A stretch of 64,000 bases of DNA from a virus (Duplodnaviria; Heunggongvirae; Uroviricota; Caudoviricetes), in IMG/VR virus record IMGVR_UViG_638275541_000001, one strand, 5' to 3'. This document shows, in pieces, positions 5,915-63,349 of the stretch; position 1 is the stretch's first letter; each line of letters begins with the position of its first letter. The position numbers were made by a program, and so were the translations under genes. Below the pieces are notes generated by a model, which worked only from the letters and a program-made list of their open reading frames with translations, made no database searches and had not been told where the DNA came from.

Positions 5915-6022
5915 ATGAGTAATAACTCCATCGCAAAAAAGTTTAGAGCGTCATACCTAAACAGACGTAAAAACAAAGTTTGTGAAAAACTGTATGGTGT
6001 TCTCGTAGGTAAGCAGGATTAG
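5915..6022 (+). CDS. small basic ORF (35 aa) inside the tRNA cluster
   Basis: ATG preceded by GAGGAGAG; MSNNSIAKKFRASYLNRRKNKVCEKLYGVLVGKQD; stop overlaps start of tRNA-Arg; below the ORF-track length cutoff. Confidence 0.3.
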   Translation: MSNNSIAKKFRASYLNRRKNKVCEKLYGVLVGKQD

Positions 6023-6088
6023 TTCAAATGGATAGAGCAACAGTCTACGAAGCTGTTAATAGGGGTTCGAATCCCTTATCCTGCGCCA
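6013..6088 (+). tRNA. tRNA-Arg (anticodon ACG)
   Basis: acceptor GCAGGAT/ATCCTGC, D-arm GTTCAAATGGATAGAGC, anticodon stem ACAGT/GCTGT with loop CTACGAA, T-arm AGGGGTTCGAATCCCTT, GCCA. Confidence 0.75.
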
Positions 6089-6106
6089 ATTTAAAGAGGC
6101 TATTTA

Positions 6107-6664
6107 ATGAGATATTTGAAGTATGCTTCATGGATTTTCTTAGCTTTACTAGACCCAATTGCAGCAATCCTAGCAGTTATCTTAGCACCTTTCGTAGTTC
6201 CATTCTACAGTGAGAAGAAAGGACATCTACCTTTTGGATTCAGATGGATGGAGACCTATGACAACCCAATTGATGGTGATGAAGGTCACGTTAAAAGATG
6301 GGCTAAGATTAGAAAGATTGGTAAGCTGGGTGTCTACATGCAGAGAGTCGGATGGCTCTGGAGAAACAAAGCTTATAACTTATCTTACCATGTATTAGGA
6401 AGAGATGTAAAAGATGTTACTAAGTGGAAAGGTAATATCAACGTAAGTTCTGACCCTGAAGATAATCAGACAGGTTATCTCCTAATGTGGAACAACAATG
6501 CTTGGGGATTATTCGCTTTTATTCCGTCAATTAAAATCTTTGGTAAACAGTTTTACTGGAGAATTTATGTTGGATGGAAACTAAAAAGTGTTGTCCCAAA
6601 AGAAAGAGCATTCTCAAGGGAAAGAGTTATGTTGGCATTCTTTATTCATCCACTGAGAAAGTAA
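6107..6664 (+). CDS. hypothetical membrane protein
   Basis: 185 aa; N-terminal hydrophobic segment WIFLALLDPIAAILAVILAPFVVPF; RBS AAAGAGG; sits between tRNA genes. Confidence 0.55.
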   Translation: MRYLKYASWIFLALLDPIAAILAVILAPFVVPFYSEKKGHLPFGFRWMETYDNPIDGDEGHVKRWAKIRKIGKLGVYMQRVGWLWRNKAYNLSYHVLGRDVKDVTKWKGNINVSSDPEDNQTGYLLMWNNNAWGLFAFIPSIKIFGKQFYWRIYVGWKLKSVVPKERAFSRERVMLAFFIHPLRK

Positions 6665-6672
6665 AGATTTAA

Positions 6673-6748
6673 AGGGGATTAGTTTACAAGGTTAAAACCT
6701 CGGTCTTTGAAATCGAAGAAGTTGGTTCAATTCCAACATCCCCCGCCA
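6673..6748 (+). tRNA. tRNA-Gln (anticodon TTG)
   Basis: anticodon stem TCGGT/ATCGA with loop CTTTGAA, T-arm GTTGGTTCAATTCCAAC, weak 1:72 pair, GCCA. Confidence 0.65.
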
Positions 6749-37265: not shown

Positions 37266-37523
37266 TCACTCAATAACCGTAGTATGTGATTGACCATTTT
37301 TGCCGTAGCTATAAGATGTTGTTGTTTGAGAGTTTGGACATCTGACAACAACAATATCCCTACTTATAGCGTCACCATTGAGTTTGTAGATTTTGCAGTC
37401 TTGCATCTCTGGAGGGAGGCTATAAGAGGCGTCTTTGTTTTCATAAGATGGGTTACAGCCAGCCAGAAAAATTACTCCAAGTGCAACCATTGCTTTCACA
37501 CAACTCTTAACCTTATTGTTCAC
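37266..37523 (-). CDS. small lipoprotein
   Basis: 85 aa; MNNKVKSCVKAMVALGVIFLAGC with lipobox LAGC. Confidence 0.5.
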   Translation of the reverse strand: MNNKVKSCVKAMVALGVIFLAGCNPSYENKDASYSLPPEMQDCKIYKLNGDAISRDIVVVRCPNSQTTTSYSYGKNGQSHTTVIE

Positions 37524-37655
37524 GATAGTCTACCTCTCTGTATGTTTTTAAATAGTGAGTGATGAGTTCTGGTAATTCACTACGTTTAACGTTTGAACGA
37601 AGAAGTGTCCAGTCAAAACCTTTACCAACCCTTCCCCAGAGACTGTACATTTTCT

Positions 37656-37889
37656 TCATAGCAACTCCAGAATATCAATACGTTCACCTTTGAGTACTCC
37701 AGTACGGTCTCTTGCAATCTTACCATCAACAATAAGAATGTGCGCAGACTTTAAAGAGTCACCATTAAAACCTTTTACGAACTTACTAGGCATCACTACA
37801 ATGGACATCTCCTGAATCAACTCTGGAGTATAGCAATTGTCGTGAAGTTGCTGAATAACGTCTGAAAGTGTCATTTTTGATGTCTCCAA
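37656..37889 (-). CDS. hypothetical protein
   Basis: 77-aa ORF. Confidence 0.35.
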   Translation of the reverse strand: METSKMTLSDVIQQLHDNCYTPELIQEMSIVVMPSKFVKGFNGDSLKSAHILIVDGKIARDRTGVLKGERIDILELL

Positions 37890-38080
37890 TACTCAATGTC
37901 AATAAGTTCTTGTGCAATGCTTTTCAGATTACCTTTCAAGAAAACCTTCTCAGAACCTGAAAGAGATGAATTGTCAATTAACCTGTTCATCCTCTCAAAC
38001 AACTTCTGCTTACGGTTCTTGATAGTTTCCTTTGAAGCACCTTTCATCATTGCTGCATGGGTTCTTCCACGGTGGCTCAT
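37871..38080 (-). CDS. hypothetical basic protein
   Basis: 69-aa ORF. Confidence 0.35.
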   Translation of the reverse strand: MSHRGRTHAAMMKGASKETIKNRKQKLFERMNRLIDNSSLSGSEKVFLKGNLKSIAQELIDIEYWRHQK

Positions 38081-38131
38081 AAGCCCTCCTATACAAGATA
38101 TAGTATAAGGTACTCTTCCCTGAGCACCTTG

Positions 38132-38635
38132 TCAACTTAGTTTTGCAAACTCTCCGTGGAGTTTAATAGCAGCTTCACAGTAAGCTTTATGGGCTTCTTC
38201 AGGTGTGTCAAATAAACCAAGTGATGTCCTTTTACCTCTGCATGTTATAGCTGCCCTCCACTTATTGCAGTCTTTAAAGTAATGTACACCCTTGTAACCT
38301 GATTTGTTAGTCGTCTGCTTTATTCTATTTTGAGCATTTCCGTATTTATCAGTCTCCCTAAGATTAGAAATGTGATTATTACTTCTGTTACCATCAATGT
38401 GGTCTATCATCTTAGTGGGTTTGTAACCATGTTCAAACCACCAAACGAGGTGATGAATTTTTATTACGACATCTTTGAATTTAAGTACTTTGTAACCGTA
38501 AGCATCAGCACCTCCTGCAATCTGCCCAGCTTTAGCTTGTCTATTCCTGTCATACTTGTTGTAGAAGACCCCTTTGTCGGGGTCGTAAATAAAATTATCC
38601 TTGTAATCTTGAAGTGTTAGTGTACGGCGTACCAT
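38132..38635 (-). CDS. HNH homing endonuclease with AP2-type DNA-binding domain
   Basis: HLVWWFEHG...IDHIDGNRSNNHISNLR then SGYKGVHY...KWRAAI...LGLFDTPEEAHKAY; paralogous to 48209-48709 and 61059-61550. Confidence 0.7.
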   Translation of the reverse strand: MVRRTLTLQDYKDNFIYDPDKGVFYNKYDRNRQAKAGQIAGGADAYGYKVLKFKDVVIKIHHLVWWFEHGYKPTKMIDHIDGNRSNNHISNLRETDKYGNAQNRIKQTTNKSGYKGVHYFKDCNKWRAAITCRGKRTSLGLFDTPEEAHKAYCEAAIKLHGEFAKLS

Positions 38636-41316
38636 GTCTTACCTACCTTACCAGTACCTGTAACAAGCGTCTTACTCTTTAATCCAAGATTTTTTGATGC
38701 TTGACCATACATTCTATCAATAATCTCTTTAACATCAGGTACATCTTTGGTTGGAACCTCTAAAGAGACCTCATCGTGGTAACTACAGACCCACCTAGCA
38801 CCAATAGCAGGCTTCCTACCATTTAGAACTGTAAGCTTGCGCTCTGTTAACTCTCTGTTAGCCAAGTTAATACCCTCATTCTGCACCTGAGCCTCACTGC
38901 CCATAAGTGTGTAATTCAATAACTTATGTGGAGATTTACACCATAACCACGCTCCAGCAACTTTGATATAACCACCTTTGGCAATTGCAGAAGTTTTTCC
39001 GAAAACCTCTTCAAGTGCTTTCTTAGTTGCTTTGAAGTCTTCCTCTAGTCTATCAAGCAGCTTTTTAATCTTAGGTAGACGCACAAAGTAAGTTTGTTTA
39101 GTTAATGCACCTTCTTCCGTAGATGATGCCTTGATAGTTTTTGCAAACTTCTCGTCTCCGGCTCCAAATAACAGGGCGTAGATGCCATTCTTAGCCTTCT
39201 TACGGCCTTTTGTAATCTCGTGAAGAAGTTCCTCATCCTGTGTCTCCCTACAACGAACAATATCTTCTTCCTTGTTCAGACCGAAGTAAATACTGTTCAG
39301 TGTATGCGCATCAGTCCCTGTGTAGACTTCATAGAGGTCATTTTCAGCATCATAACGCAGATACTTGTCAGTTTCTGGGTTAAGATACTTGTCAAGATGC
39401 TTACAGTAGTATCTACCATCATCTTGCTTAGTGAACTCTACTGACTCTTTACCCTCAGTTACCGCTTTAGTAAAGTCTTCATCACCCATAAAGTTACAAA
39501 GAAGAACTAGCTGGGCTGAGTTTTGGTCTACGGAGATGATATCTGTACCTTCCTCACAAATCCACACTGCCCTCATTGGCTCCCCATAGACAGCAGCACC
39601 AGACGGTACGTTTACAATACCATATTGTGTCATACGTCCAGTTGAAGTACCAAATACCATTGCACCAGCACTAAGGCGACCATCAGGACGAATCTGGTTC
39701 AACCAACCTTTTTCATCATCCTTTGAGTTCTCAATAGTTCTGCGTCGGTGCATCAAAGTGTAGTATTTAGCAATCTTCTGTCCAAGTTCACCTTCAATCG
39801 TATCATAAGATGACTCAGTAAGCTTTGGTGAAGTACGGATTAAGCAAGGTTCAAGCAAATCTGTGTATTTCTTCACAGACCAGTTATGCTCAATGTACTG
39901 GACACCTTCATGTTCAACATAACTCAAACCACACCGCTCAACCATTTCCTGCCACTTAGGATGTTTTGTAATCATCTTTTTATTGTCTTTGAAACGACAA
40001 ACTTTGACAGGGCGACCATCTGAGTCTTTCTTGTAGTTCCAGTCATCTGGAATCCAACCAACTGATTTCAAGTAGTCTTTAACAACTGCTACCTGAGTCA
40101 TACGAGAAACTTCAAACTCAATTGGTGTATATGGTGCATCAATCAAACCTGTGTAGCGACTTGACTCAAGTTCAAAGTGGTTAACAACGTGGCTGTTATA
40201 GTACTTCACAGTTTTGACTGTTTTTACTGGTTTCCAGTCTTTGCATTTCTTACCAATCTTTGCGTTCAACTCATTGCAAATTGCACGAGCATCCTTCATT
40301 GCTACAAAACCTTCCTTGTACTCTTCACCAGTTACAGTGTTGGTTGGTGTATAGCAATTTCTCTTTTCAATGTTAAAAATCTTTGTAGTTGGCTTACCAA
40401 ATGGCTTGATTTCATAAGTTTGCATCTCACCGTTACGTACCTGCTGACGATACTTTGTTTTAGGGTACTTGGTAATTCTCTTCAGTCCATCTGCATGACC
40501 AAATGTTTCAACATACTCATTCCAAGCTTTTGCAAACTCTTCTCCAGTGACTTTACCTTTGGTCTTAATAGTTGGAGGTAGATGTGGTTCAACCTCTGAA
40601 GCAAGCTCATTAGTCAACTTGTCAAGTTCCTTTACATGGAACTCCATAAGCTCCTTATCAGCTTTCCAACCATTGATAGCTTGTTGACTCATCCAGAAAG
40701 ATGTTTCTTTAGCTCGCATGTAGGTTTCATAAGTGTCTATGCCACACTTCTTAAGCTTGAGATACTCATTATCAAGTGCCCGTTTAGCTTTGGCGTTAAT
40801 ACGGATATCTTCTACAACACGAGTGAAGATTTCTGCATTCCACACACCCCAATGCTCAATCTCTGGCTTACGAACACCAACACGAGCACCCCATGCAGCC
40901 AAGCCATGAGCACCTTTATAACCCTTTGGGGTTGGTCTATCCATCCACTGAACACGAGACTGGATAAGAGAGTCCTGAAAGAAATTACTCCACGGTTTAC
41001 ACTTTGGATTATCAAAGTTCCATAAATCAGGTGCAATGTGATTGAAAACCCACCAGTCATAACCGAGACCATTATGGATGCAAAGACGTTTTGCCTTTAA
41101 CGCAAATTCAACACCTTCACGTAAACCACCTTTGATGTACTTAGTGTACTTGTGACCGAGGATAGGCTCATCTGTAAAGACCCATACAGGTGGCTCTTCA
41201 TCGTCAGATTTATAGTCTGCAAAGGCCATTACGTGAACTTTAGTGAACTCAAGGAGTAAACCATCAGTTTCTGTATCACCAACCAAATGTAAGTTTTTAA
41301 AATCTACGTTTTCCAT
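38617..41316 (-). CDS. DNA polymerase, family A, with 3'-5' exonuclease domain
   Basis: Exo I DTETDGL; motif B-like KKAKNGIYALLFGAG; motif C YHDE; start moved to Met11 with RBS AGGGAG. Confidence 0.8.
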   Translation of the reverse strand: MENVDFKNLHLVGDTETDGLLLEFTKVHVMAFADYKSDDEEPPVWVFTDEPILGHKYTKYIKGGLREGVEFALKAKRLCIHNGLGYDWWVFNHIAPDLWNFDNPKCKPWSNFFQDSLIQSRVQWMDRPTPKGYKGAHGLAAWGARVGVRKPEIEHWGVWNAEIFTRVVEDIRINAKAKRALDNEYLKLKKCGIDTYETYMRAKETSFWMSQQAINGWKADKELMEFHVKELDKLTNELASEVEPHLPPTIKTKGKVTGEEFAKAWNEYVETFGHADGLKRITKYPKTKYRQQVRNGEMQTYEIKPFGKPTTKIFNIEKRNCYTPTNTVTGEEYKEGFVAMKDARAICNELNAKIGKKCKDWKPVKTVKTVKYYNSHVVNHFELESSRYTGLIDAPYTPIEFEVSRMTQVAVVKDYLKSVGWIPDDWNYKKDSDGRPVKVCRFKDNKKMITKHPKWQEMVERCGLSYVEHEGVQYIEHNWSVKKYTDLLEPCLIRTSPKLTESSYDTIEGELGQKIAKYYTLMHRRRTIENSKDDEKGWLNQIRPDGRLSAGAMVFGTSTGRMTQYGIVNVPSGAAVYGEPMRAVWICEEGTDIISVDQNSAQLVLLCNFMGDEDFTKAVTEGKESVEFTKQDDGRYYCKHLDKYLNPETDKYLRYDAENDLYEVYTGTDAHTLNSIYFGLNKEEDIVRCRETQDEELLHEITKGRKKAKNGIYALLFGAGDEKFAKTIKASSTEEGALTKQTYFVRLPKIKKLLDRLEEDFKATKKALEEVFGKTSAIAKGGYIKVAGAWLWCKSPHKLLNYTLMGSEAQVQNEGINLANRELTERKLTVLNGRKPAIGARWVCSYHDEVSLEVPTKDVPDVKEIIDRMYGQASKNLGLKSKTLVTGTGKVGKTWYAVH

Positions 41317-47184: not shown

Positions 47185-48231
47185 ATGGAGAAGTACACAT
47201 TAACAAAACTTCCCGATTCAGTTACACATGTTTTTATTGACTCTGATAGTATTGCCTATAAAGGTGCTTGTGTAGTTGAGAAAGCAAAATATAAATATGT
47301 CAATAAACTCACAGCAGAAGAATCTGATTCGTTTGATAATGCAAAAGATGCTGCAAGATGGTTAGCAGACCAGAGAATCCTTGTGGAAGAGCTTGGCCTG
47401 ACATTTGATGAAGATGAATGGGAAAGACAGACTTGGAAAGAAGCTAAGAGTGAAAAAGAAGCTATCATGGCTACTCAACAGGTGCTTCAGGAATGGCTTA
47501 AGATTGTTGGTAAAGAAAGAACTTGGGTAGGTTATTTAACAGAGAAAGGTGTGCATAAACATAAAGACATTAAAGGTCTTGAGCACCAATATCAAGGGAA
47601 CCGTAAAGATGCTGTCACACCAACACACTTAGTTGCTTGTCGTGAGTATCTTCTGTCAAGACCAGAGTTCAAATTGATTCTTGATGGGTTTGAAGCTGAC
47701 TCTATCGTAATTGCTAAAGCTGAAAAGATGGGTAAAAAGGCTGCCTTAATGAGTATTGATAAAGACCTTCGCCAAGCTGAAGGCACTTACTGCATTGATA
47801 TGACCTATGAAAAATCACCTTTAATTTTTATTGCTGATAACAATGTTGGTGAAATATGGGATTGCCCAATAAAATCAACACCAAAAGCTAAGAAGACAGT
47901 TGGGGTAGGTTTTAAATTTCTTTGCTATCAAGCCGTGGCTGGTGATAATGCGGATAATTATTTTGGTTTAAAGGGTGTTGGCAAGGTTACTATAATGAAA
48001 GCCCTTGAGGGTAAAACCACTTACAAAGAGTGTCTTGATGCAATTTATGAGCTTTATGCTAAGAAAGAGTCGTACACTTATGTCTCGTGGGATGGTCAAA
48101 CAATTACCAGAACACCCTTAGAGTTAATGCAGCAACACTTTTTCTTAGCTTATCAGGAAAGAAATAAGAAAGACGATTTCACTTTTGATAAGTATGGGTG
48201 GACACCAAATGTTAACTCAACAAACTCTTAA
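47185..48231 (+). CDS. 5'-3' exonuclease / flap endonuclease (RNase H-like)
   Basis: H3TH-type motif AGDNADNYFGLKGVGKVTIMKAL; acidic N-terminal region. Confidence 0.65.
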   Translation: MEKYTLTKLPDSVTHVFIDSDSIAYKGACVVEKAKYKYVNKLTAEESDSFDNAKDAARWLADQRILVEELGLTFDEDEWERQTWKEAKSEKEAIMATQQVLQEWLKIVGKERTWVGYLTEKGVHKHKDIKGLEHQYQGNRKDAVTPTHLVACREYLLSRPEFKLILDGFEADSIVIAKAEKMGKKAALMSIDKDLRQAEGTYCIDMTYEKSPLIFIADNNVGEIWDCPIKSTPKAKKTVGVGFKFLCYQAVAGDNADNYFGLKGVGKVTIMKALEGKTTYKECLDAIYELYAKKESYTYVSWDGQTITRTPLELMQQHFFLAYQERNKKDDFTFDKYGWTPNVNSTNS

Positions 48232-48709
48232 AGAGCACCTGCACTATGACCCCGAAACAGGGGTCTTTACTTGGTTAGTTGATAGAAAAGGTAAGGCCAA
48301 AGCTGGCTCAGTAGCAGGTTTTAAACACCATAGCGGTTATATCTATATAAAACTCTTCGGAAAAAGATATGCAGCACACAGGCTGGCATTCTTGTATATG
48401 AAAGGATACCTCCCAAAATTTGTTGACCACAAGAATTGTATCAGATACGACAACTGGTTCGACAATTTGAGAGAGTGTAGCAGGTCAGACAACAACTGTA
48501 ATGCAGTCAAAAGAAGAGATAATAAGTCTGGTGTGAAGGGTGTATATTACCACAAGCAAAGAGGTAGATGGGCTGCACAAGTTAAGCATAATAAAGTTTG
48601 CTACCATCTAGGTCTATTTGACTCTGTTGCTGAGGCTGAAGAAGTTGTCAAAAAGAAAAGAGAAGAACTTCATAGAGAGTTTACAAATCACGGAGAAGCT
48701 CATGAATGA
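48209..48709 (+). CDS. HNH homing endonuclease with AP2 domain
   Basis: AHRLAFLYMKGY...VDHKNCIRYDNWFDNL then SGVKGVYYH...RWAAQV...LGLFDSVAEAEE; start moved to ATG 24 nt inside track ORF. Confidence 0.7.
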   Translation: MLTQQTLKEHLHYDPETGVFTWLVDRKGKAKAGSVAGFKHHSGYIYIKLFGKRYAAHRLAFLYMKGYLPKFVDHKNCIRYDNWFDNLRECSRSDNNCNAVKRRDNKSGVKGVYYHKQRGRWAAQVKHNKVCYHLGLFDSVAEAEEVVKKKREELHREFTNHGEAHE

Positions 48710-49206
48710 TTAAAGTTAAAGGTTTTGGGAGTTGTCCAACTTATGGACATTGGATTTCACTATGTGGTGAAGTTGACCCAGCAAAGCACTTTGGTTTTGT
48801 CTACCTAGTGTACTGCAAAAAGACTGGACAGTACTATTTGGGTAAAAAACAGCTTAACAGTGTGACCAAAAGAAAAGTTGCTGGTAAGACTCGGAAGAAG
48901 ATAGTCACTAAGGAAAGTGATTGGATGACTTATGAGACTTCTTCTGATTATATTAAAAAAGATATTGAAAGCTTTGGAAAGGAATCTTTTGACTTTTACA
49001 TTATCCAAACCTACTACACAAAAGGTGGCCTAGTTTATGGTGAAGCAAACCTTCAACATAAGTTCGATGTAATGACAAAAAGGATTGACTCGAAGCTCAG
49101 ACTCTTCTACAATGCCAATATTGCAGCAATTAAGTTTATTACTAAAGAAACTTATGAAGATGCTGAAAAAAGAATCCATAAGGTAATGAAAGCAAATCGT
49201 GCTTGA
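48706..49206 (+). CDS. GIY-YIG-type homing endonuclease (putative)
   Basis: N-terminal FVYLVYCKKTGQYYLGKK resembles the GIY...YIG motif. Confidence 0.45.
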   Translation: MIKVKGFGSCPTYGHWISLCGEVDPAKHFGFVYLVYCKKTGQYYLGKKQLNSVTKRKVAGKTRKKIVTKESDWMTYETSSDYIKKDIESFGKESFDFYIIQTYYTKGGLVYGEANLQHKFDVMTKRIDSKLRLFYNANIAAIKFITKETYEDAEKRIHKVMKANRA

Positions 49207-49227
49207 TAACTATTGAGAGAGAATAAA

Positions 49228-49476
49228 ATGTTTAACAAAAGTAAAGCTGTAAGTCATGTAGCAAAAGTTGACAGCAAGATTGAAGAACTTGAGCGCATCC
49301 TTGCAAATGCTAGAGAGTCAATAATTAAAGAAGTTGAAGCTGTTGAATCTCAAATGCAGCACCTAATGCTTAAACGTCAAGAGCTACGTGAGCATCTAGA
49401 ATATATTGAAACACGAGAGCTAAAGGTTAACAAATATTTTAAGGAGTCCGAATGTTTAACTCAAGAGAATCAGTAA
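49228..49476 (+). CDS. hypothetical coiled-coil protein
   Basis: start moved to ATG 15 nt inside track ORF; RBS GAGAGAGA. Confidence 0.4.
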   Translation: MFNKSKAVSHVAKVDSKIEELERILANARESIIKEVEAVESQMQHLMLKRQELREHLEYIETRELKVNKYFKESECLTQENQ

Positions 49477-50207
49477 AAAACTGGAACCTTCGTTGTGGAA
49501 ACACTCAAAAGCAACCTTACAGTGATGAGTATTGGGAATCTTTAAAATCTCAATCTCTGTGTATGCTTGAAGAAGCAAAAGAGCTTGTAAAAGCAATTGA
49601 AGAGAAAGACCCCATTGAGACGCTGGATGCTCAGGCAGATTTACAATATGTTCTTGACGGCTTGATTTACCTGTCACAACATGACCATAACGGTGCTATG
49701 AAAGCTGTTTGTCATAATAATGACCTGAAGTACACAGATGATTATGAAGAAGCTTTAAAACGTCTTGCAGACATTGAAAAGCGTACTGGTCAAGAGTGTA
49801 TTATCAGAATGTCAGTAGTTGATGGTAAAGAGTGGTATGCGATTGTTCGTGAAGCCGATGGGAAGATTATGAAGCAATCAAATCTCCCTAAAGTACAGCT
49901 TGGTGAATACATTGTAGAGCTTGAAAGCCAAGAACTTTTTGTGGTAGTATCTGAGACATGCGTTATCTGCAAAGGTATTGTAGGTAGCTTAAAGGATTTG
50001 GGTGTAGATGGTTTTGTAGAAGTTAATCCAATCACCTCTAAAGCAGATAAAGACTTCTGTAAAGAGAATGGACTATGGATTGCAGATATTGTCTACTATG
50101 ATGGTGAGCAGTTCCATGTAACCTCATACCCGAAACTGAATTATGATGCTAATAACCTGAAGTGCTGGTTAAAAGGGGTTGGTTATAATGGATTCACAGA
50201 ACATTAA
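49452..50207 (+). CDS. hypothetical protein with possible MazG-like N-terminal domain
   Basis: RBS AAGGAG; N-terminal EEAKELVKAIEEKDPIETLDAQADLQYVLDG resembles all-alpha NTP pyrophosphohydrolase pattern; weak. Confidence 0.4.
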   Translation: MFNSRESVKNWNLRCGNTQKQPYSDEYWESLKSQSLCMLEEAKELVKAIEEKDPIETLDAQADLQYVLDGLIYLSQHDHNGAMKAVCHNNDLKYTDDYEEALKRLADIEKRTGQECIIRMSVVDGKEWYAIVREADGKIMKQSNLPKVQLGEYIVELESQELFVVVSETCVICKGIVGSLKDLGVDGFVEVNPITSKADKDFCKENGLWIADIVYYDGEQFHVTSYPKLNYDANNLKCWLKGVGYNGFTEH

Positions 50208-57946: not shown

Positions 57947-58432
57947 ATGAATTACATGGAGATTAGACCATTTGATACAGCTAATGGTGAAGGGGTTCGT
58001 GTAAGCCTCTTCGTAGCTGGTTGTAAGCATCACTGTGAAGGCTGCTTTAACAGGGAGTCTTGGAAGTTTAATGCTGGTAAAGAGTTTACTTATGCAAACC
58101 TTTACGGGATTCTAAGACTTTTGGAAGATGATTCTTTAAGTGGATTATCTATTCTTGGTGGAGAACCACTAGATGACCGTAACGTTGAAGAGGTCACAAA
58201 GATTTGCCAGAAGGTAAAGTCTATCTACCCAGAAAAATCTATCTGGCTCTGGACAGGTTTTCAGTTACACGAAAAAATTCACCTAGATGTGATGAAATAT
58301 GTTGACGTGGTGATTGATGGTAAGTATGATTCATCTAAACCAACAGTTAAACCATATCGTGGTTCTGATAACCAAAACCTCTGGAGAAAAGAGTATGGGT
58401 GGCAAGGTGATTGTCAGTGGAGAGCCGAGTAA
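57947..58432 (+). CDS. nrdG: anaerobic RNR activating enzyme (radical SAM)
   Basis: 161 aa; CKHHCEGCFN matches CxxxCxxC radical-SAM cluster motif. Confidence 0.75.
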   Translation: MNYMEIRPFDTANGEGVRVSLFVAGCKHHCEGCFNRESWKFNAGKEFTYANLYGILRLLEDDSLSGLSILGGEPLDDRNVEEVTKICQKVKSIYPEKSIWLWTGFQLHEKIHLDVMKYVDVVIDGKYDSSKPTVKPYRGSDNQNLWRKEYGWQGDCQWRAE

Positions 58433-59370: not shown

Positions 59371-59886
59371 ATGTATCTGTCAAACCTGAAACGTTCGGCT
59401 GCAATGTCAGTCCTAAGACTCAGCTTTGAGGAACGTCAAGAGTTCATTGACTCCCACCAATACGACCCTTCTAACTCGAATCACATGGTTCTTTGGAATC
59501 GTGATAACTTCCGTGAAAGAGCACTTGTCCGTTATTACCCACACTACACAATAGATAACCTGTATGAATGGTGTGTTGTGAAGAACACTATTGCAACACT
59601 GAACAATCTTTGCAGGTATACAGGTAAGCAAGCATTTACATTAGGCCACCACAAACCTGTTACAAAGGGTGGTGAGCATCACTGTGCAAACTGGTTTATC
59701 CAGACTAGACTTGATAACCAGAGGCAAGGGGATAGACTTTTAAGTACCCCTAAGATGACCTACGAAGAGCAAGAGAAATATATCAAAAATAATATGCCAG
59801 ATGTGCTTGACAACAACTATACAGATTTGGCAATATCTCTCCTGTTGAAGTTCGAGACAGTTTATAGGGCAACTTATAATGGCTAA
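59371..59886 (+). CDS. HNH endonuclease
   Basis: 171 aa; LGHHKPVTKGGEHHCANWFIQTRLDNQRQG matches HNH core. Confidence 0.6.
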   Translation: MYLSNLKRSAAMSVLRLSFEERQEFIDSHQYDPSNSNHMVLWNRDNFRERALVRYYPHYTIDNLYEWCVVKNTIATLNNLCRYTGKQAFTLGHHKPVTKGGEHHCANWFIQTRLDNQRQGDRLLSTPKMTYEEQEKYIKNNMPDVLDNNYTDLAISLLLKFETVYRATYNG

Positions 59887-60157
59887 AGAGAAGTGGGAGA
59901 TTTTACCATTAGTCAGTGAAGGCGGTAATGGTTGTGAAATGTACATGATACGTGGTCATGTTCCAGAACCAATTGCACTTGAGATGGTAAACAACTTTAC
60001 AGATGGCTCTTACAAAGACTTAGGGGAGCCAACTATAAAGCAGCAATGGGTAAAGCCTGTACCAGACAGCACAGGTAACTGTAGTGTACTTTATCACGTT
60101 GTAGACCCTGCAAAATGCAAATCTGCAATGGCAGTAACAAACGTAACTTTTGATTGA
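59879..60157 (+). CDS. hypothetical protein
   Basis: 92-aa ORF. Confidence 0.35.
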   Translation: MAKEKWEILPLVSEGGNGCEMYMIRGHVPEPIALEMVNNFTDGSYKDLGEPTIKQQWVKPVPDSTGNCSVLYHVVDPAKCKSAMAVTNVTFD

Positions 60158-60168
60158 GAGAGAAAACT

Positions 60169-61050
60169 ATGAAAACTGTTATTGAAGCCGTCGTCACCGC
60201 ACAAGAGAAATTCTTCCACACAGAAAAATTTAATATCATTCAATTCCCATCTGGAGAAATTGGTGGAAACTTCTCTGAAGATTTTGTTAAGTTTACTGAG
60301 CGTAATGCTGGTAAGATTGATAATGTTATAATTACTGTACAGGGATATGACAAAGATACACTGTTTGCATTAGCTTTGGCTAAGGATGCCGTTGACAGTC
60401 TTGTTCCCCAGAAATCAGCGATGAAAACCGTTGTTTTCGGGTTCTTACCAAATGCTCGATATGACCGCCACATGTTCAAAGGTGATGCAGCAGCACTGAA
60501 AGTCTTTGCCAACCTAGTTAATGCAATGGGCTTTGATGCAGTATGTGCTCTTGACCCTCACAGCAATGTTGCAGAAAACTTATTTAAGTGCTTTCAGAGC
60601 ATGAAGCAAAAAGATGTGGCAGTCCACTATGCAAATGACCCTCTGATTGATTACTTAGTAGCCCCAGATGCAGGTGCTTCTAAGAAGATTGCAGAGACTG
60701 CTAAAGAGGTGGATAAACCATACATCACAATGTCTAAAGTGCGCAACCTTAAGACTGGTGAAATTACTGGTATGCGAATCCTTGATGATGTTGATTTGAC
60801 AGATAAAACCGTCATGATTCTGGATGATATCTGTGATGGTGGTCGAACCTTCGTAGAAGCAGCAAAACATCTTCGTGAAGCAGGTGCAAAACGTGTGGAA
60901 CTTTATGTAACACATGGTATCTTCTCTAAAGATGTTGAAAACCTTCTTGACAATGGTATCGACCATATTTACACTACAAACTCTTTAGGCGAAGCTAAAG
61001 ACCGTGGCTTAACACATTACAGTCAAGTTACTGTAGCAAATTTGGATTAG
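60169..61050 (+). CDS. ribose-phosphate pyrophosphokinase-like enzyme (PRPS family; candidate ADP-ribose pyrophosphokinase of an NAD+ reconstitution pathway)
   Basis: ~293 aa from ATG with RBS GAGAGAG; phosphoribosyltransferase-type fold signatures (VAPDAGASKK, MILDDICDGGRTF); paired with NAMPT-like gene downstream. Confidence 0.6.
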   Translation: MKTVIEAVVTAQEKFFHTEKFNIIQFPSGEIGGNFSEDFVKFTERNAGKIDNVIITVQGYDKDTLFALALAKDAVDSLVPQKSAMKTVVFGFLPNARYDRHMFKGDAAALKVFANLVNAMGFDAVCALDPHSNVAENLFKCFQSMKQKDVAVHYANDPLIDYLVAPDAGASKKIAETAKEVDKPYITMSKVRNLKTGEITGMRILDDVDLTDKTVMILDDICDGGRTFVEAAKHLREAGAKRVELYVTHGIFSKDVENLLDNGIDHIYTTNSLGEAKDRGLTHYSQVTVANLD

Positions 61051-61058
61051 GTATTAAA

Positions 61059-61550
61059 ATGGATAAGGGTTACTTCGAAAAATACCTAATATACGAACCA
61101 GAGACAGGTTTACTAATTTGGAAAGTAACCCTTTGCAATACCGCTATTGCTGGTAATGTTGCTGGCACAAGGTCTAAGAAGGGTTATATCCAAGTTCAGA
61201 TAAATAAGAAGAGGTACTATGCGCATAATATCGCATGGATTCTATCTGGAGGTGATATACCAAGTGGATATGAGATAGACCACATAGACCTTGACAAAAC
61301 AAATAATAGGCTGGAAAACTTAAGACTGAGTACAAAGTCACAAAACCAAAGGAATAGAGGTCTACAAAAGAACAATAAAACTGGCGTGAAGGGCGTAAGT
61401 GTGTGTCCACAGACAGGTCTTTATAAGGCAAGGGTGATGCTTTATCATAAAGAATACTTTTGCGGAAGATTTAAAACGCTAGAAGAAGCTAAAGAAGCTG
61501 TAATTAGAAAACGAATAGAACTTCATGGTAAGTTTGCAAGACATAACTAA
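61059..61550 (+). CDS. HNH homing endonuclease with AP2 domain, inserted between the two NAD-related genes
   Basis: YAHNIAWILSGG...IDHIDLDKTNNRLENLR then TGVKGVSV...LYKARV...FKTLEEAKEA. Confidence 0.7.
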   Translation: MDKGYFEKYLIYEPETGLLIWKVTLCNTAIAGNVAGTRSKKGYIQVQINKKRYYAHNIAWILSGGDIPSGYEIDHIDLDKTNNRLENLRLSTKSQNQRNRGLQKNNKTGVKGVSVCPQTGLYKARVMLYHKEYFCGRFKTLEEAKEAVIRKRIELHGKFARHN

Positions 61551-61567: not shown

Positions 61568-63349
61568 ATGAGTAAATCACTTTACGCAGTACCAGCAGGT
61601 CTTAATGCAGATGCTTACAAGTCATCACATATATATCAGTATCCAGATGCTACACAGTATCTTATGTTAAACCTGACACCACGTAGTGATAAATGGTTTA
61701 ACAGCCCCTTAGCAATTGATGGTGTAGTGGCTTTTGGTATTCAACGTTTTGTTAAAGATTACTTGATAGACCACTGGAACGCCACTTTCTTTGAACGTGA
61801 TAAAAAAGAAGCAGTTGACGAAATCTTAGAAGTCATGAATGGTGTTCTGGGTAAAGATGCTATCGGTAGAGAGCATTGGGAAGCACTTCACGATTTAGGC
61901 TATCTACCAGTTGAAGTATACGCTGTAGAAGAAGGTACAGTTGTTCCTATGCGTGTTCCAATGATTGTCTTCCAGAACACTGTTTCAGGTTTCCATTGGG
62001 TAGCAGGTTATCTGGAAGATGCTTTCTCTGCTGAGATTTGGAAGGCTTGCACCATTGCAACTATTGCATTGCACTACAAACGCATCTGTAAGAAGTGGGC
62101 TGACCTTACTTGCGACAATGACTTACATTTACCTTATCAGTGCCATGACTTTGCTATGCGTGGTATGTCCGGCTTTACCGATGACGCATTTAATGCTGTA
62201 GGTCACTTAACCAGCTTTAAAGGGACTGATAGCTTCCCTGCTGTATACACAGCTAAACGTATCTATGGACAGGCTTACCCAATCTCTGATATTGGCAGTT
62301 CTGTACCAGCCACTGAACACTCTGTGATGTGTGCAAACATTGCTTGGGAAGGTGGTAACGAGTTGGTTGAAGAAGAAAGACGATTTAAAGGTGAGTTGCA
62401 AACCTTCCGTCGTTTCTTAACAGAAACTTACCCAACTGGTATTGCAAGTATTGTTTCAGATACTTATAACTTCTGGAGAACTGTGTCAGAAATCCTACCA
62501 GCACTTCGTAAAGAAATTATGGAACGTGATGGTAGGCTGGTAATTCGCCCTGACTCTGGAGACCCTGTACATATTGTCACAGGTTATAAAGCAATCCACT
62601 TAGAGTGTGCTAAAAAGGCTTACTACGAGCACCTAAGCAAGCTAGAGGCAAGTGATACAATGCTGAACTCTGTCCTGAACATGAAGCTTGAAAACATTAG
62701 TTACGGTATTGCTGGATGGCTACTGTCAGAAGGCTACGAGATGGTTGTTGACAGAGAAGACTTTGAAGTTGCTGATACAGTGATGTTGAAAAATGCTTAT
62801 ATGGTTGGTTCTGCAAACGTTGTAACACGTCCTGTAGCTGAAATTGATGGAGCTATTAAGACACTGTACAACATCTTTGGGGGAACTATTAACTCTAAAG
62901 GATTTAAGGTACTTGATGAGCATATCGGCCTTATCTATGGTGACTCTATCACACTGGAACGTGCAAACGAAATCCTGAAGCGTCTGTATGAAATGGGTTT
63001 TGCAAGTTCTAACGTAGTGTTTGGTGTAGGCTCTTACACTTACCAGTACATGACTCGTGACACCTTTGCATTTGCTGTCAAAGCAACTCTTGCAAGCATT
63101 GGTGGTAAAGAGATTATGCTTGCAAAAGACCCTAAAACAGATAGTGGTGTTAAGAAGTCTGCCTTTGGTGGTGTAGCACCTATGTGGGACGGTGATAAGC
63201 TGAAAGCTGTAGATGGATATGGATTCCAGAGTTTTGCAGATGTACTTGACCACCCAGCCTGTGCTTTACGTTTAGTCTTTAGTGACTCTGAGCAGTTCGG
63301 TTACACAACTCTTGGTGATATTCGAAATAATATTGACAAGCAGCTTTAA
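61568..63349 (+). CDS. nicotinamide phosphoribosyltransferase-like enzyme (NAMPT family; candidate nicotinamide ADP-ribose transferase)
   Basis: 593 aa; NAMPT/NadV-like regions (GTDSFPAVYTA, PATEHSVMCA, IRPDSGDPV, LIYGDSITLE). Confidence 0.65.
   Translation: MSKSLYAVPAGLNADAYKSSHIYQYPDATQYLMLNLTPRSDKWFNSPLAIDGVVAFGIQRFVKDYLIDHWNATFFERDKKEAVDEILEVMNGVLGKDAIGREHWEALHDLGYLPVEVYAVEEGTVVPMRVPMIVFQNTVSGFHWVAGYLEDAFSAEIWKACTIATIALHYKRICKKWADLTCDNDLHLPYQCHDFAMRGMSGFTDDAFNAVGHLTSFKGTDSFPAVYTAKRIYGQAYPISDIGSSVPATEHSVMCANIAWEGGNELVEEERRFKGELQTFRRFLTETYPTGIASIVSDTYNFWRTVSEILPALRKEIMERDGRLVIRPDSGDPVHIVTGYKAIHLECAKKAYYEHLSKLEASDTMLNSVLNMKLENISYGIAGWLLSEGYEMVVDREDFEVADTVMLKNAYMVGSANVVTRPVAEIDGAIKTLYNIFGGTINSKGFKVLDEHIGLIYGDSITLERANEILKRLYEMGFASSNVVFGVGSYTYQYMTRDTFAFAVKATLASIGGKEIMLAKDPKTDSGVKKSAFGGVAPMWDGDKLKAVDGYGFQSFADVLDHPACALRLVFSDSEQFGYTTLGDIRNNIDKQL

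What the first reader, a model, noticed from the sequence alone, without database searches (positions are those of the whole stretch)
61059..61550. Family of three paralogous HNH-AP2 homing endonucleases at replication and metabolic genes
Genes at 38132-38635 (-), 48209-48709 (+) and 61059-61550 (+) share the same HNH and AP2 blocks. One abuts the DNA polymerase 3' end, one overlaps the flap endonuclease 3' end, and one sits between the PRPS-like and NAMPT-like genes. With the GIY-YIG candidate (48706-49206), the HNH at 59371-59886 and three HNH genes in the tRNA cluster, about 8 free-standing endonuclease genes occur in 64 kb.
Basis: partly seen in the sequence, partly recalled or inferred. 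Interest (0 to 1): 0.4.

Follow-up and report, generated by a model that had tools for sequence, protein, structure and literature searches.

The report
Three mobile HNH-AP2 endonuclease genes
The window is phage Felix O1, and the three small genes are real paralogous selfish "homing" nuclease genes that are present in some relatives and cleanly absent from others; this kind of element, and its presence in Felix O1, is already known.

Summary
ORFs 38132-38635(-), 48209-48709(+) and 61059-61550(+) are full-length paralogs (33-38% identity, BLASTP E 1e-25 to 5e-33). Each has an I-HmuI-like HNH_3 nuclease domain with its catalytic residues intact, followed by a C-terminal AP2 DNA-binding domain. 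A profile scan finds exactly three in the window.

The window matches Salmonella phage FO1a, a Felix O1 isolate, at 100% in the three regions tested. All three genes are patchily distributed among about 250 relatives:
- The PRPS|NAMPT site is occupied in 60 of 249 records, with clean empty sites elsewhere.
- The site after the 5'-3' exonuclease gene carries the window's allele, one of two diverged HNH-AP2 alleles, or nothing.
- The site after DNA polymerase carries the window's allele in about 15 of 252 records, and several other HNH-AP2 lineages or nothing elsewhere.

Occupancy at the three sites assorts independently. In phiSUSP1 and Moogle, from other genera, the PRPS|NAMPT gene is 91-95% identical in DNA to the window's and drags along a 100%-identical tract of about 60 nt of NAMPT, while the rest of NAMPT is about 72% identical. 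That is a homing co-conversion signature.

dN/dS is 0.04-0.32, so the proteins are under constraint. Nuclease activity and target sites are inferred, not shown. The count of "about 8" is really 7 supported plus 1 doubtful. The kind and the Felix O1 case are published, so this is ordinary.

The parts
61059..61550 (+). g3: a 163-aa HNH-AP2 free-standing homing endonuclease gene, equal to Felix O1 NP_945017. HNH_3 covers aa 53-98 (nt 61215-61352) and AP2 covers aa 108-157 (nt 61380-61529).
   Evidence: Domains: Pfam and PHROG matches. Structure: the AF2 model matches I-HmuI and an AP2 domain. Distribution: occupied in 60 of 249 records. The gap between the flanking genes is bimodal, 44-48 bp or 514-518 bp.
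61568..61637 (+). The first 60-70 nt of the NAMPT-like gene. This is the co-conversion tract that travels with g3, and it contains the HEG-linked substitutions: codon 2 is AGT rather than ACT, and codon 6 is TAC rather than TAT.
   Evidence: This tract is 100% identical to the window in phiSUSP1 and Moogle, whereas the rest of NAMPT is about 72% identical.
61048..61058 (+). Left junction of g3. The PRPS stop codon is TAG in all 8 occupied alleles, and TGA or TAA in all 21 empty alleles displayed. In empty alleles a 44-48-bp spacer with a terminator-like hairpin, GGGGCTTAAAAGCCCC followed by a T-run, sits at this position.
48209..48709 (+). g2: a 166-aa HNH-AP2 homing endonuclease gene. It overlaps the exonuclease gene by 23 nt and the GIY-YIG gene by 4 nt.
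   Evidence: Relatives carry this allele (91-100% aa), one of two other allele classes (about 56% and about 52% aa), or an empty site in which the GIY-YIG gene directly follows a 346-aa exonuclease.
47680..48208 (+). The 3' part of the 5'-3' exonuclease gene. Nucleotide identity to relatives that lack the window-type allele falls here from about 97% to 73-77%, forming a divergence valley next to g2.
   Evidence: The C-terminal tail differs between alleles: WTPNVNSTNS* in the window-type tail and WEPCMNED* in empty alleles.
38132..38635 (-). g1: a 167-aa HNH-AP2 homing endonuclease gene. Its start lies 19 nt inside the 3' end of the DNA polymerase gene.
   Evidence: This allele is found in about 15 of 252 records. 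At least five other HNH-AP2 lineages (37-48% aa) or nothing occupy the same site in relatives.
38617..39500 (-). The 3' part of the DNA polymerase gene, about 900 nt, inherited together with the g1-type allele. Identity to genomes without g1-type falls from about 97% to 50-56% towards the stop codon.
   Evidence: Identity of the C-terminal 110 aa is bimodal: 16 records at 95% or more, 288 records at 80% or less.
48706..49206 (+). A GIY-YIG (SegE-like) endonuclease gene directly downstream of g2. It is present at this position in all 28 IMG/VR relatives examined.
   Evidence: Pfam PF19835 at E 4.1e-27. It is often annotated 'NAD synthetase' in GenBank.
2866..3360 (+). HNH endonuclease gene (phrog_2255) inside the tRNA cluster.
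   Evidence: Only 2 of 269 records cover at least 80% of the query 2700-6700.
3848..4240 (+). HNH endonuclease gene (phrog_2255) inside the tRNA cluster.
5158..5571 (+). HNH / endonuclease VII-like gene (phrog_2255; weak Pfam HNH match) inside the tRNA cluster.
59371..59886 (+). A doubtful eighth endonuclease: a 171-aa protein of phrog_3500 (unknown function) with an HNH-like motif. It is present at the same place in every relative inspected.

Best explanation
The three genes are free-standing homing endonuclease genes (HEGs) of the widespread phage HNH-AP2 family, sitting in phage Felix O1.

Protein. Each encodes a two-domain enzyme of about 165 aa. An N-terminal I-HmuI-type HNH (beta-beta-alpha-metal) nuclease domain is followed by a C-terminal AP2 DNA-binding domain that supplies sequence specificity.

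Inferred mechanism. When Felix O1 co-infects a cell with a relative that lacks the gene, or carries a different allele, the enzyme binds the cognate 'empty' allele next to the insertion point. It then nicks or cuts that DNA; I-HmuI-type enzymes are nickases. The break is repaired by recombination using the HEG-carrying genome as template. This copies the HEG plus a stretch of neighbouring sequence (co-conversion). The carrier's own site escapes cutting because the insertion and linked substitutions have altered it.

Inferred direction of the break at each site:
- g3: the break is placed at the intergenic region or the NAMPT 5' end, because the co-converted tract runs about 60-70 nt into NAMPT and not into PRPS.
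- g1: the break is placed in the 3' end of the DNA polymerase gene.
- g2: the break is placed in the 3' end of the 5'-3' exonuclease gene.

Expression. None of the three genes has an obvious promoter of its own. g1 and g2 overlap the upstream gene, and g3 replaces a terminator-like hairpin. They are probably expressed by read-through and translational coupling.

Shown here: paralogy, domain content, conserved catalytic residues, purifying selection, presence/absence polymorphism with precise junctions, independent assortment, horizontal transfer with a co-conversion tract, and HEG-linked divergence of the flanks.

Inferred, not shown: enzymatic activity, nick versus double-strand cut, the exact recognition and cleavage sites, and current as opposed to past mobility.
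For: Family and fold:
- HNH_3 plus AP2 in all three and phrog_99.
- A profile of 13 alleles hits I-HmuI 1U3E at E 1.6e-7, with D74, H75, N87, N96 and N99 aligned. It also hits the AP2 domains of WRI1 (4.6e-9), TEM1 (4.7e-5) and AtERF1 (8e-3).
- The AF2 model of g3 (pLDDT 79.6) has I-HmuI as its best PDB match (E 4.2e-4, prob 1.00), followed by the TEM1 AP2 domain (prob 1.00, rmsd 1.1 A).

Mobility of g3:
- 60 of 249 records are occupied. The remaining listed records that span both flanks lack about 473 bp and match in two clean pieces.
- In 31 fetched loci the gap is 44-48 bp in 24 loci and 514-518 bp in 7.
- All 8 occupied alleles share the PRPS stop TAG, NAMPT codon 2 AGT and codon 6 TAC. 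Among the 21 empty alleles displayed, the stop is TGA or TAA, codon 2 is ACT or TCT, and codon 6 is TAT with one exception.
- phiSUSP1 and Moogle have the HEG at 94.7% and 91.1% nt identity. NAMPT nt 1-60 is 100% identical, the rest of NAMPT is about 72%, and the PRPS 3' end is 73%.
- Between the window and phiSUSP1, dS is 0.20 for the HEG and 1.28 for NAMPT.

Mobility of g2: alleles at 91-100%, about 56% and about 52% aa identity, or an empty site, all occur at one position. A divergence valley runs from about 47680 to about 48980.

Mobility of g1: about 15 of 252 records carry this allele. The polymerase 3' end is 94-100% identical in g1-type genomes and falls to 50-56% in the others, recovering immediately downstream of the HEG. 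Polymerase C-terminal identity is bimodal.

Independent assortment of the three sites in 28 genomes.

dN/dS is 0.04-0.32.

Literature:
- The Felix O1 genome paper reports six HNH homing-endonuclease-like genes (PMC3185647).
- HNH-AP2 is a recognised HEG family that often lies next to DNA polymerase genes, with cognate HEGs at the same locations in related phages (PMC10448857).
Against: - No cleavage assay or cross exists for these proteins, so activity and target sites are inference.
- The AP2 score is below Pfam's gathering cut-off for g2 and g3 taken singly.
- Linkage between the HEG allele and its flank is imperfect at site 2. L053 is empty but has a window-like exonuclease 3' end, and L038 has the 56%-type HEG with a different flank. 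Ordinary recombination therefore also shuffles this region.
- The polymerase 3' divergence zone also contains the insertion site of a group I intron found in some relatives. Not all of that mosaicism can be credited to g1.
- The sequences compared are related to each other, so counts of alleles are not independent events.
Confidence: 0.85

Rival explanations
1. The genes are passive accessory cargo. They are exchanged among Felix O1-like phages by ordinary homologous recombination at conserved flanks, and their own nuclease makes no break. The HNH-AP2 protein would then be inactive or irrelevant to the transfer.
For: Felix O1-like genomes are mosaic in many places that have no endonuclease gene. 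Examples are the 5' part of PRPS (81-96% aa, unrelated to g3 occupancy) and window 37300-37600. Linkage between HEG and flank is imperfect at site 2.
Against: - Divergence valleys are centred on the HEG insertion points and graded towards them.
- A short, one-sided tract of 100% identity accompanies g3 across genera.
- Catalytic residues are invariant in 13 alleles.
- dN/dS is 0.04-0.32, so the protein itself is under selection.
Confidence: 0.07
2. The genes are ancestral and have been lost repeatedly by deletion. The patchy distribution would then reflect decay, not gain.
For: Signs of decay exist. The g2 homolog in Si3 (L034) has a 1-nt deletion near its 5' end, and the GIY-YIG gene of EC6 (L057) is frameshifted. 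Either could also be a sequencing error.
Against: - Empty g3 sites hold a different, conserved 44-48-bp spacer with a terminator-like hairpin, not a deletion scar.
- The g3 gene is far more similar between genera than its flanks are (dS 0.20 against 1.28).
- Several unrelated allele lineages occupy sites 1 and 2.
Confidence: 0.04
3. The proteins have been domesticated for a phage function, with the AP2 domain used for sequence-specific binding. Possible roles are a transcription regulator, a nickase for replication or recombination, or an AP2-based silencer of host defence like the CapR-AP2 'CasPR' anti-CRISPRs.
For: AP2 domains act as DNA-binding repressors in phage anti-CRISPR proteins (bioRxiv 10.64898/2026.02.23.707548). 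Purifying selection is seen.
Against: - A needed function would not be absent from most close relatives.
- The HNH active site is intact.
- CasPRs have a different architecture (CapR plus AP2, without HNH) and occur in Bacillota prophages.
Confidence: 0.04

Closest known systems
HNH-AP2 homing endonuclease family (Magnani, Sjolander & Hake 2004, Plant Cell; called 'IPA-HNH' HEGs in Barth et al. 2023, PMC10448857)
   Same: Both have an N-terminal HNH domain followed by a C-terminal AP2 DNA-binding domain. Both are free-standing phage genes that lie next to essential replication or nucleotide-metabolism genes. In Barth et al., 29% of such genes lie next to DNA polymerase genes, and cognate HEGs sit at the same locations in related phages.
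   Different: Nothing essential differs. The ICP1 representatives have HNH domains too diverged for the Pfam HNH_3 model, whereas the Felix O1 genes hit HNH_3 directly.
I-HmuI (PDB 1U3E), the intron-encoded HNH nicking homing endonuclease in the DNA polymerase gene of Bacillus phage SPO1
   Same: The HNH_3 nuclease domain is shared, with aligned D74, H75, N87, N96 and N99. It is the best sequence-profile and fold match. The size is similar (174 aa) and the target is also a phage DNA polymerase gene.
   Different: I-HmuI lies inside a group I intron, and its C-terminal DNA-binding part is not an AP2 domain. Here the genes are free-standing, lying after or between genes. That I-HmuI nicks only one strand is taken from my own knowledge of the published work, not tested here.
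Free-standing HEGs of phage T4 (SegA-G of the GIY-YIG class, MobA-E of the HNH class); 'intronless homing' with marker exclusion and co-conversion (SegF, SegG)
   Same: These are also intergenic HEGs. They cut the HEG-less allele at a distance from the insertion site and drag flanking markers along. The neighbouring gene 48706-49206 is itself SegE-like.
   Different: The DNA-binding module differs (AP2 here). No crosses or cleavage maps exist for the Felix O1 genes.
The 'six copies of HNH endonucleases' reported in the Felix O1 genome paper (Whichard et al. 2010, PMC3185647) and the GenBank annotations 'HNH endonuclease' in FO1a JF461087 and NP_945017
   Same: These are the same genes in the same phage.
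   Different: The paper does not mention the AP2 domain, paralogy, empty sites or co-conversion tracts. Those were worked out here.

Membership tests
HNH (beta-beta-alpha-metal) nucleases, HNH_3 / I-HmuI type | Significant match to the HNH_3 model | tested here: met
   PF13392 at 70.5, 45.0 and 44.8 bits against a gathering score of 24.8. The family profile hits I-HmuI 1U3E at E 1.6e-7.
HNH (beta-beta-alpha-metal) nucleases, HNH_3 / I-HmuI type | Catalytic and metal-binding residues retained (Asp-His pair, Asn of the NLR turn, C-terminal Asn) | tested here: met
   D74, H75, N87 and N99 are invariant in 13 alleles. N96 is present in all three window genes, but is Ser in three alleles from other phages. 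The positions coincide with I-HmuI D74, H75, N87, N96 and N99 in the HMMER alignment.
HNH (beta-beta-alpha-metal) nucleases, HNH_3 / I-HmuI type | Beta-beta-alpha fold | tested here: met
   The AF2 model has pLDDT 79.6 and the elements E71-75, E88-92 and H93-104. The top Foldseek hit in the PDB is I-HmuI, at E 4.2e-4 and prob 1.00. The alignment behind the model was only 3 sequences deep.
HNH (beta-beta-alpha-metal) nucleases, HNH_3 / I-HmuI type | Metal-dependent DNA nicking or cleavage | not testable with these tools
   This needs purified protein and a substrate.
AP2 DNA-binding domain | Match to the AP2 model and fold (three-stranded sheet packed on a helix) | tested here: met
   - PF00847 scores 41.3 bits for g1, above the 33.3-bit cut-off. 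g2 (31.2 bits) and g3 (17.8 bits) are below it on their own.
- The family profile hits the AP2 domains of WRI1 (4.6e-9), TEM1 (4.7e-5), ERF096 (1e-3) and AtERF1 (8e-3).
- The model has E113-115, E122-128, E131-138 and H141-160.
- It matches the TEM1 AP2 domain at prob 1.00 and rmsd 1.1 A over 40 columns.
Free-standing homing endonuclease gene (mobile) | Presence/absence polymorphism at a fixed site among close relatives, with precise junctions | tested here: met
Free-standing homing endonuclease gene (mobile) | Evolutionary history discordant with the flanks (horizontal transfer) and co-conversion of flanking sequence | tested here: met
   - g3: 91-95% nt identity across genera against about 72% for the flank, with a 60-nt tract at 100%. 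dS is 0.20 against 1.28.
- g1 and g2: graded divergence valleys next to the insertion points.
Free-standing homing endonuclease gene (mobile) | The enzyme cleaves the HEG-less allele, and the HEG is inherited above the input ratio in crosses | not testable with these tools
   This requires in vitro cleavage assays and mixed infections.
Intron- or intein-encoded endonuclease | Location inside a self-splicing intron or in frame inside a host protein | tested here: not met
   All three lie after or between complete genes. Empty alleles show the uninterrupted neighbouring genes. The Felix O1 paper reached the same conclusion. A group I intron does occur in the polymerase gene of some relatives, but not in the window.

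The most novel reading that the evidence does not exclude
The site after the DNA polymerase gene may be a contested landing pad.

At least six diverged HNH-AP2 lineages (37-48% aa identity) replace one another there. All of them keep a nearly identical final 75-80 nt, encoding ...TPEEAHKAYCEAAIKLHGEFAKLS.

The Felix O1 lineage of the HEG has carried with it a foreign C-terminal segment of the essential DNA polymerase. That segment is only 68-74% identical in aa to other Felixounavirus and falls to 50-56% nt identity near the stop codon.

On this reading, competition between HEGs is actively diversifying a replication enzyme and acts as an interference weapon between co-infecting Felix O1-like phages.
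Probability: 0.3. Interest if true: 0.35.

Novelty: already known. Interest (0 to 1): 0.15.

Why it matters
The finding matters little on its own. Felix O1's HNH endonuclease genes were reported in 2010, the HNH-AP2 architecture has been a recognised HEG family since 2004, and the association of such genes with polymerase genes and recombination boundaries was described in 2023.

It has practical value in three ways:
- These genes and their co-converted flanks (the polymerase 3' end, the exonuclease 3' end and the NAMPT 5' end) should be excluded from phylogenies of Felix O1-like phages.
- They explain much of the gene-content variation among therapeutic and biocontrol Felixounavirus isolates.
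- The clean occupied and empty allele pairs defined here give ready substrates for anyone who wants to map an HNH-AP2 target site.

Tried and rejected
- Single-sequence phmmer of g3 against PDB sequences gave only noise (E about 0.7). A 13-allele profile was needed to reach I-HmuI and the AP2 structures.
- Pfam alone does not recognise two of the three tRNA-cluster HNH genes or the ORF at 59371-59886. PHROGs was needed.
- I first read the conserved element downstream of g1 (TTGACA...TATACT) as a sigma-70 promoter. The hexamers are 22 nt apart and the consensus scan does not report it, so I dropped that reading. What remains is that the HEG stop codon TGA lies inside the TTGACA hexamer of a conserved intergenic element.
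- Rfam at gathering threshold found the group I intron only in the ORF-less case (L091), not in the ORF-containing insertions (L086, L089). The intron status of the latter is therefore inferred from position only.
- The intron or intein reading for the three genes was considered and rejected (see the membership test).
- The CasPR-like repressor reading was considered and rejected on architecture and distribution.
- I did not run the large protein-database searches (search for homologous proteins, the search of protein representatives), because the phage tblastn already showed that the family is very large and well annotated.

Full report
**What the window is.** Three regions of the window (2700-6700, 37630-39140 and 47700-49710) are 100% identical to Salmonella phage FO1a, JF461087, a Felix O1 isolate. 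The rest matches about 250 Felixounavirus and other Ounavirinae records at 80-97%. The 25-tRNA cluster, the family A DNA polymerase, the 5'-3' exonuclease, PRPS and NAMPT fit the published Felix O1 genome. An annotation note in a relative identifies the gene between PRPS and NAMPT as Felix O1 NP_945017, 'putative HNH endonuclease'.

**Observation check.**
- The three ORFs are present as stated.
- All have Pfam HNH_3 above threshold, plus an AP2 match. The AP2 match is above threshold only for the gene at 38132-38635.
- All belong to phrog_99.
- They align over their full length at 34-38% identity, with BLASTP E-values of 5e-33, 1e-25 and 6e-29.
- A profile of the family finds exactly these three in the six-frame translation of the window.
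- g1 (38132-38635, minus strand) begins 19 nt inside the polymerase gene.
- g2 (48209-48709) begins 23 nt inside the exonuclease gene and ends 4 nt inside the GIY-YIG gene.
- g3 (61059-61550) lies 8 nt after PRPS and 17 nt before NAMPT.

**The wider count.**
- The GIY-YIG gene is a clear SegE-type match.
- The three ORFs in the tRNA cluster are HNH / endonuclease VII-like by PHROGs.
- The ORF at 59371-59886 is doubtful. It has no Pfam hit and only a weak PHROG hit. An HNH-like motif is visible by eye.
- That gives 7 supported genes plus 1 doubtful.

**Family membership.** A profile of 13 alleles, made of the three window genes and ten from relatives (alignment A3), matches I-HmuI (1U3E) at E 1.6e-7. 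The alignment places the invariant D74, H75, N87 and N99 and the near-invariant N96 opposite the same-numbered I-HmuI residues. The same profile matches the AP2 domains of WRI1 (4.6e-9), TEM1, ERF096 and AtERF1. An AlphaFold2 model of g3 (pLDDT 79.6, from a shallow alignment) has I-HmuI as its top PDB match and the TEM1 AP2 domain at rmsd 1.1 A. The genes are not in introns or inteins, because their neighbours are complete genes and empty alleles show them uninterrupted.

**Are they at identical positions in all relatives? No.**

*Site 3 (g3).*
- 60 of 249 matching phage records cover the gene. The remaining listed records that span both flanks match in two pieces with about 473 bp missing.
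- In 31 fetched loci the distance from the PRPS stop to the NAMPT start is either 44-48 bp (24 loci) or 514-518 bp (7 loci). Nothing lies in between.
- Empty sites carry a conserved spacer with a hairpin, GGGGCTTAAAAGCCCC, followed by a T-run and a GAGAGAG ribosome-binding site. Occupied sites have the gene instead of the hairpin.
- Three substitutions are strictly or almost strictly linked to occupancy. The PRPS stop is TAG in 8 of 8 occupied alleles, against TGA or TAA in all 21 empty alleles displayed. NAMPT codon 2 is AGT against ACT or TCT. Codon 6 is TAC against TAT, with one exception. These sequences are related to one another, so the counts are not independent events.

*Site 2 (g2).*
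- The site holds the window's allele (91-100% aa), one of two other HNH-AP2 allele classes (about 56% and about 52% aa), or nothing.
- In the empty case the exonuclease is 346 aa and ends WEPCMNED*, and the GIY-YIG gene follows directly.

*Site 1 (g1).*
- Only about 15 of 252 records carry the window's allele.
- At least five other HNH-AP2 lineages (37-48% aa) or nothing occupy the same spot, immediately after the polymerase stop.

Occupancy at the three sites assorts independently among 28 metagenomic and isolate genomes. The 4-kb stretch of the tRNA cluster that carries the other three HNH genes is covered at 80% or more in only 2 of 269 records, so those genes are sporadic too. By contrast, the GIY-YIG gene is present at the same place in all 28 genomes, and 59371-59886 is present in every relative inspected. 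Mobility is not shown for those two.

**Evidence for transfer by homing rather than loss.**
- phiSUSP1 and Moogle belong to other genera. Their g3 is 94.7% and 91.1% identical in DNA to the window's.
- The first 60 nt of their NAMPT are 100% identical to the window. The rest of NAMPT is about 72% identical, and the PRPS 3' end is 73%.
- HEG-less loci with closely similar flanks (L023, L030) have the native sequence throughout.
- Synonymous divergence between the window and phiSUSP1 is 0.20 for the HEG and 1.28 for NAMPT. Within the genus the relation is reversed: dS is 0.40 for the HEG against 0.07 for NAMPT in the comparison with Si3. The HEG therefore has its own history.
- The one-sided tract of about 60-70 nt argues that the break, or the resection, lies on the NAMPT side.
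- At site 1, nucleotide identity between the window and genomes without the g1-type allele is 95-100% over the first 1,800 nt of the polymerase gene. From about window 39500 it declines to 50-56% in the last 300 nt, then returns to 84-97% right after the HEG. Genomes with the g1-type allele stay at 94-100% throughout.
- The C-terminal 110 aa of the polymerase are bimodal across 304 records: 16 at 95% or more, and 288 at 80% or less.
- At site 2 a similar valley, down to 73-77%, spans about 550 nt of the exonuclease 3' end and about 250 nt of the GIY-YIG 5' end.

**Are the proteins functional?** dN/dS between alleles is 0.04-0.32 and the catalytic residues are conserved. The proteins are therefore under purifying selection. 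Possible decay is seen only in relatives: a 1-nt deletion in the Si3 g2 homolog and a frameshifted GIY-YIG gene in EC6. Either could be a sequencing error.

**Most likely mechanism.** See the best explanation. In short, these are classic intronless homing elements. The AP2 domain binds the HEG-less allele, the I-HmuI-type HNH domain nicks or cuts it, recombinational repair copies the HEG from the HEG-carrying genome, and neighbouring sequence is co-converted. The carrier is protected by the changes at its own site. Expression is probably by read-through and translational coupling, because g1 and g2 overlap the upstream gene and g3 replaces a terminator-like hairpin. The scans show no convincing promoter of their own. 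Enzymatic activity, the choice between nick and cut, and the recognition sequences are inferred.

**Complications.**
- Some relatives carry a group I intron, with or without an endonuclease VII/HNH ORF, in the polymerase gene at the position equivalent to window ~39175. That position is inside the divergence zone, so two mobile elements may shape the polymerase 3' end.
- Linkage between HEG allele and flank is imperfect at site 2.

**Comparison with what is known.**
- A comparative Felixounavirus study repeats this and notes variable numbers of these genes (PMC8300805).
- The HNH-AP2 architecture is a recognised HEG family (Magnani et al. 2004, as cited in PMC10448857).
- Barth et al. 2023 showed that such genes lie next to DNA polymerase genes (29%), that related phages have cognate HEGs in the same locations, and that nuclease genes mark boundaries of genetic exchange.
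- tblastn with g3 finds relatives in 3,061 of 50,697 phage records, including T7 gene 3.8 and Xanthomonas phages Xp10 and Xop411.

**Verdict.** The specific empty-site junctions, co-conversion tracts and allele series were worked out here; I did not find them in the papers I searched. The element is nonetheless an already known kind in an already described phage. Interest is low, at 0.15.

Noticed in passing
window ~39174/39175 (minus strand, DNA polymerase aa ~724); L091:3284-3567; L086:2200-3000: In some relatives the DNA polymerase gene is interrupted at this codon. One case is a 268-bp ORF-less group I intron (Rfam RF00028, 62 bits, L091). Five others (L086-L090, including Si3 and VpaE1) have an insertion of about 800 bp carrying a 160-aa ORF with an endonuclease VII/HNH motif (VVDHDHKTGKVRGMLCHNCN). 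The window (Felix O1) has the uninterrupted allele.
   Followed up: partly
window 38132-38210 (3' end of g1) and L063-L091 equivalents: All HNH-AP2 alleles at the site after the polymerase gene share nearly identical final 75-80 nt and 24 aa (TPEEAHKAYCEAAIKLHGEFAKLS), even though they are only 37-48% identical overall. Their stop codon TGA lies inside the TTGACA hexamer of a conserved intergenic element that is also present at empty sites. This suggests repeated allele replacement using the shared 3' end as a homology arm.
   Followed up: partly
window 48706-49206: The SegE-type GIY-YIG endonuclease gene is conserved at the same place in all 28 relatives examined (84-98% aa), so it looks fixed rather than mobile. 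Many GenBank records, and phrog_447, label it 'NAD synthetase', which appears to be a propagated misannotation.
   Followed up: partly
window 60154-61050: The PRPS-like protein of the window is 94-96% identical to only three relatives (all without g3) and 78-84% identical to the rest, although its last 500 nt are above 90% identical to nearly all of them. The 5' part of the gene is therefore mosaic, independently of the endonuclease gene.
   Followed up: no
window 48248-48265: A perfect 6-bp hairpin, GACCCCGAAACAGGGGTC, followed by a T-run lies inside the g2 coding sequence. It encodes the conserved N-terminal motif DPETGV, and the matching stretch GACCCCGAAACAGG is visible in nearly all site-2 alleles displayed. 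It may be a coincidence of the motif or a regulatory structure.
   Followed up: no
window 59371-59886: A 171-aa protein of unknown-function family phrog_3500 has an HNH-like motif (LGHHKPVTKGGEHHCANWFIQTRLDNQRQG) that Pfam misses. It is present at the same place in every relative inspected, so it may be a fixed HNH-fold protein rather than a mobile endonuclease.
   Followed up: partly
window 57947-58432: An anaerobic ribonucleotide reductase activase-like radical SAM protein (Fer4_12, E 7e-43) lies a short distance upstream of the PRPS/NAMPT block.
   Followed up: no
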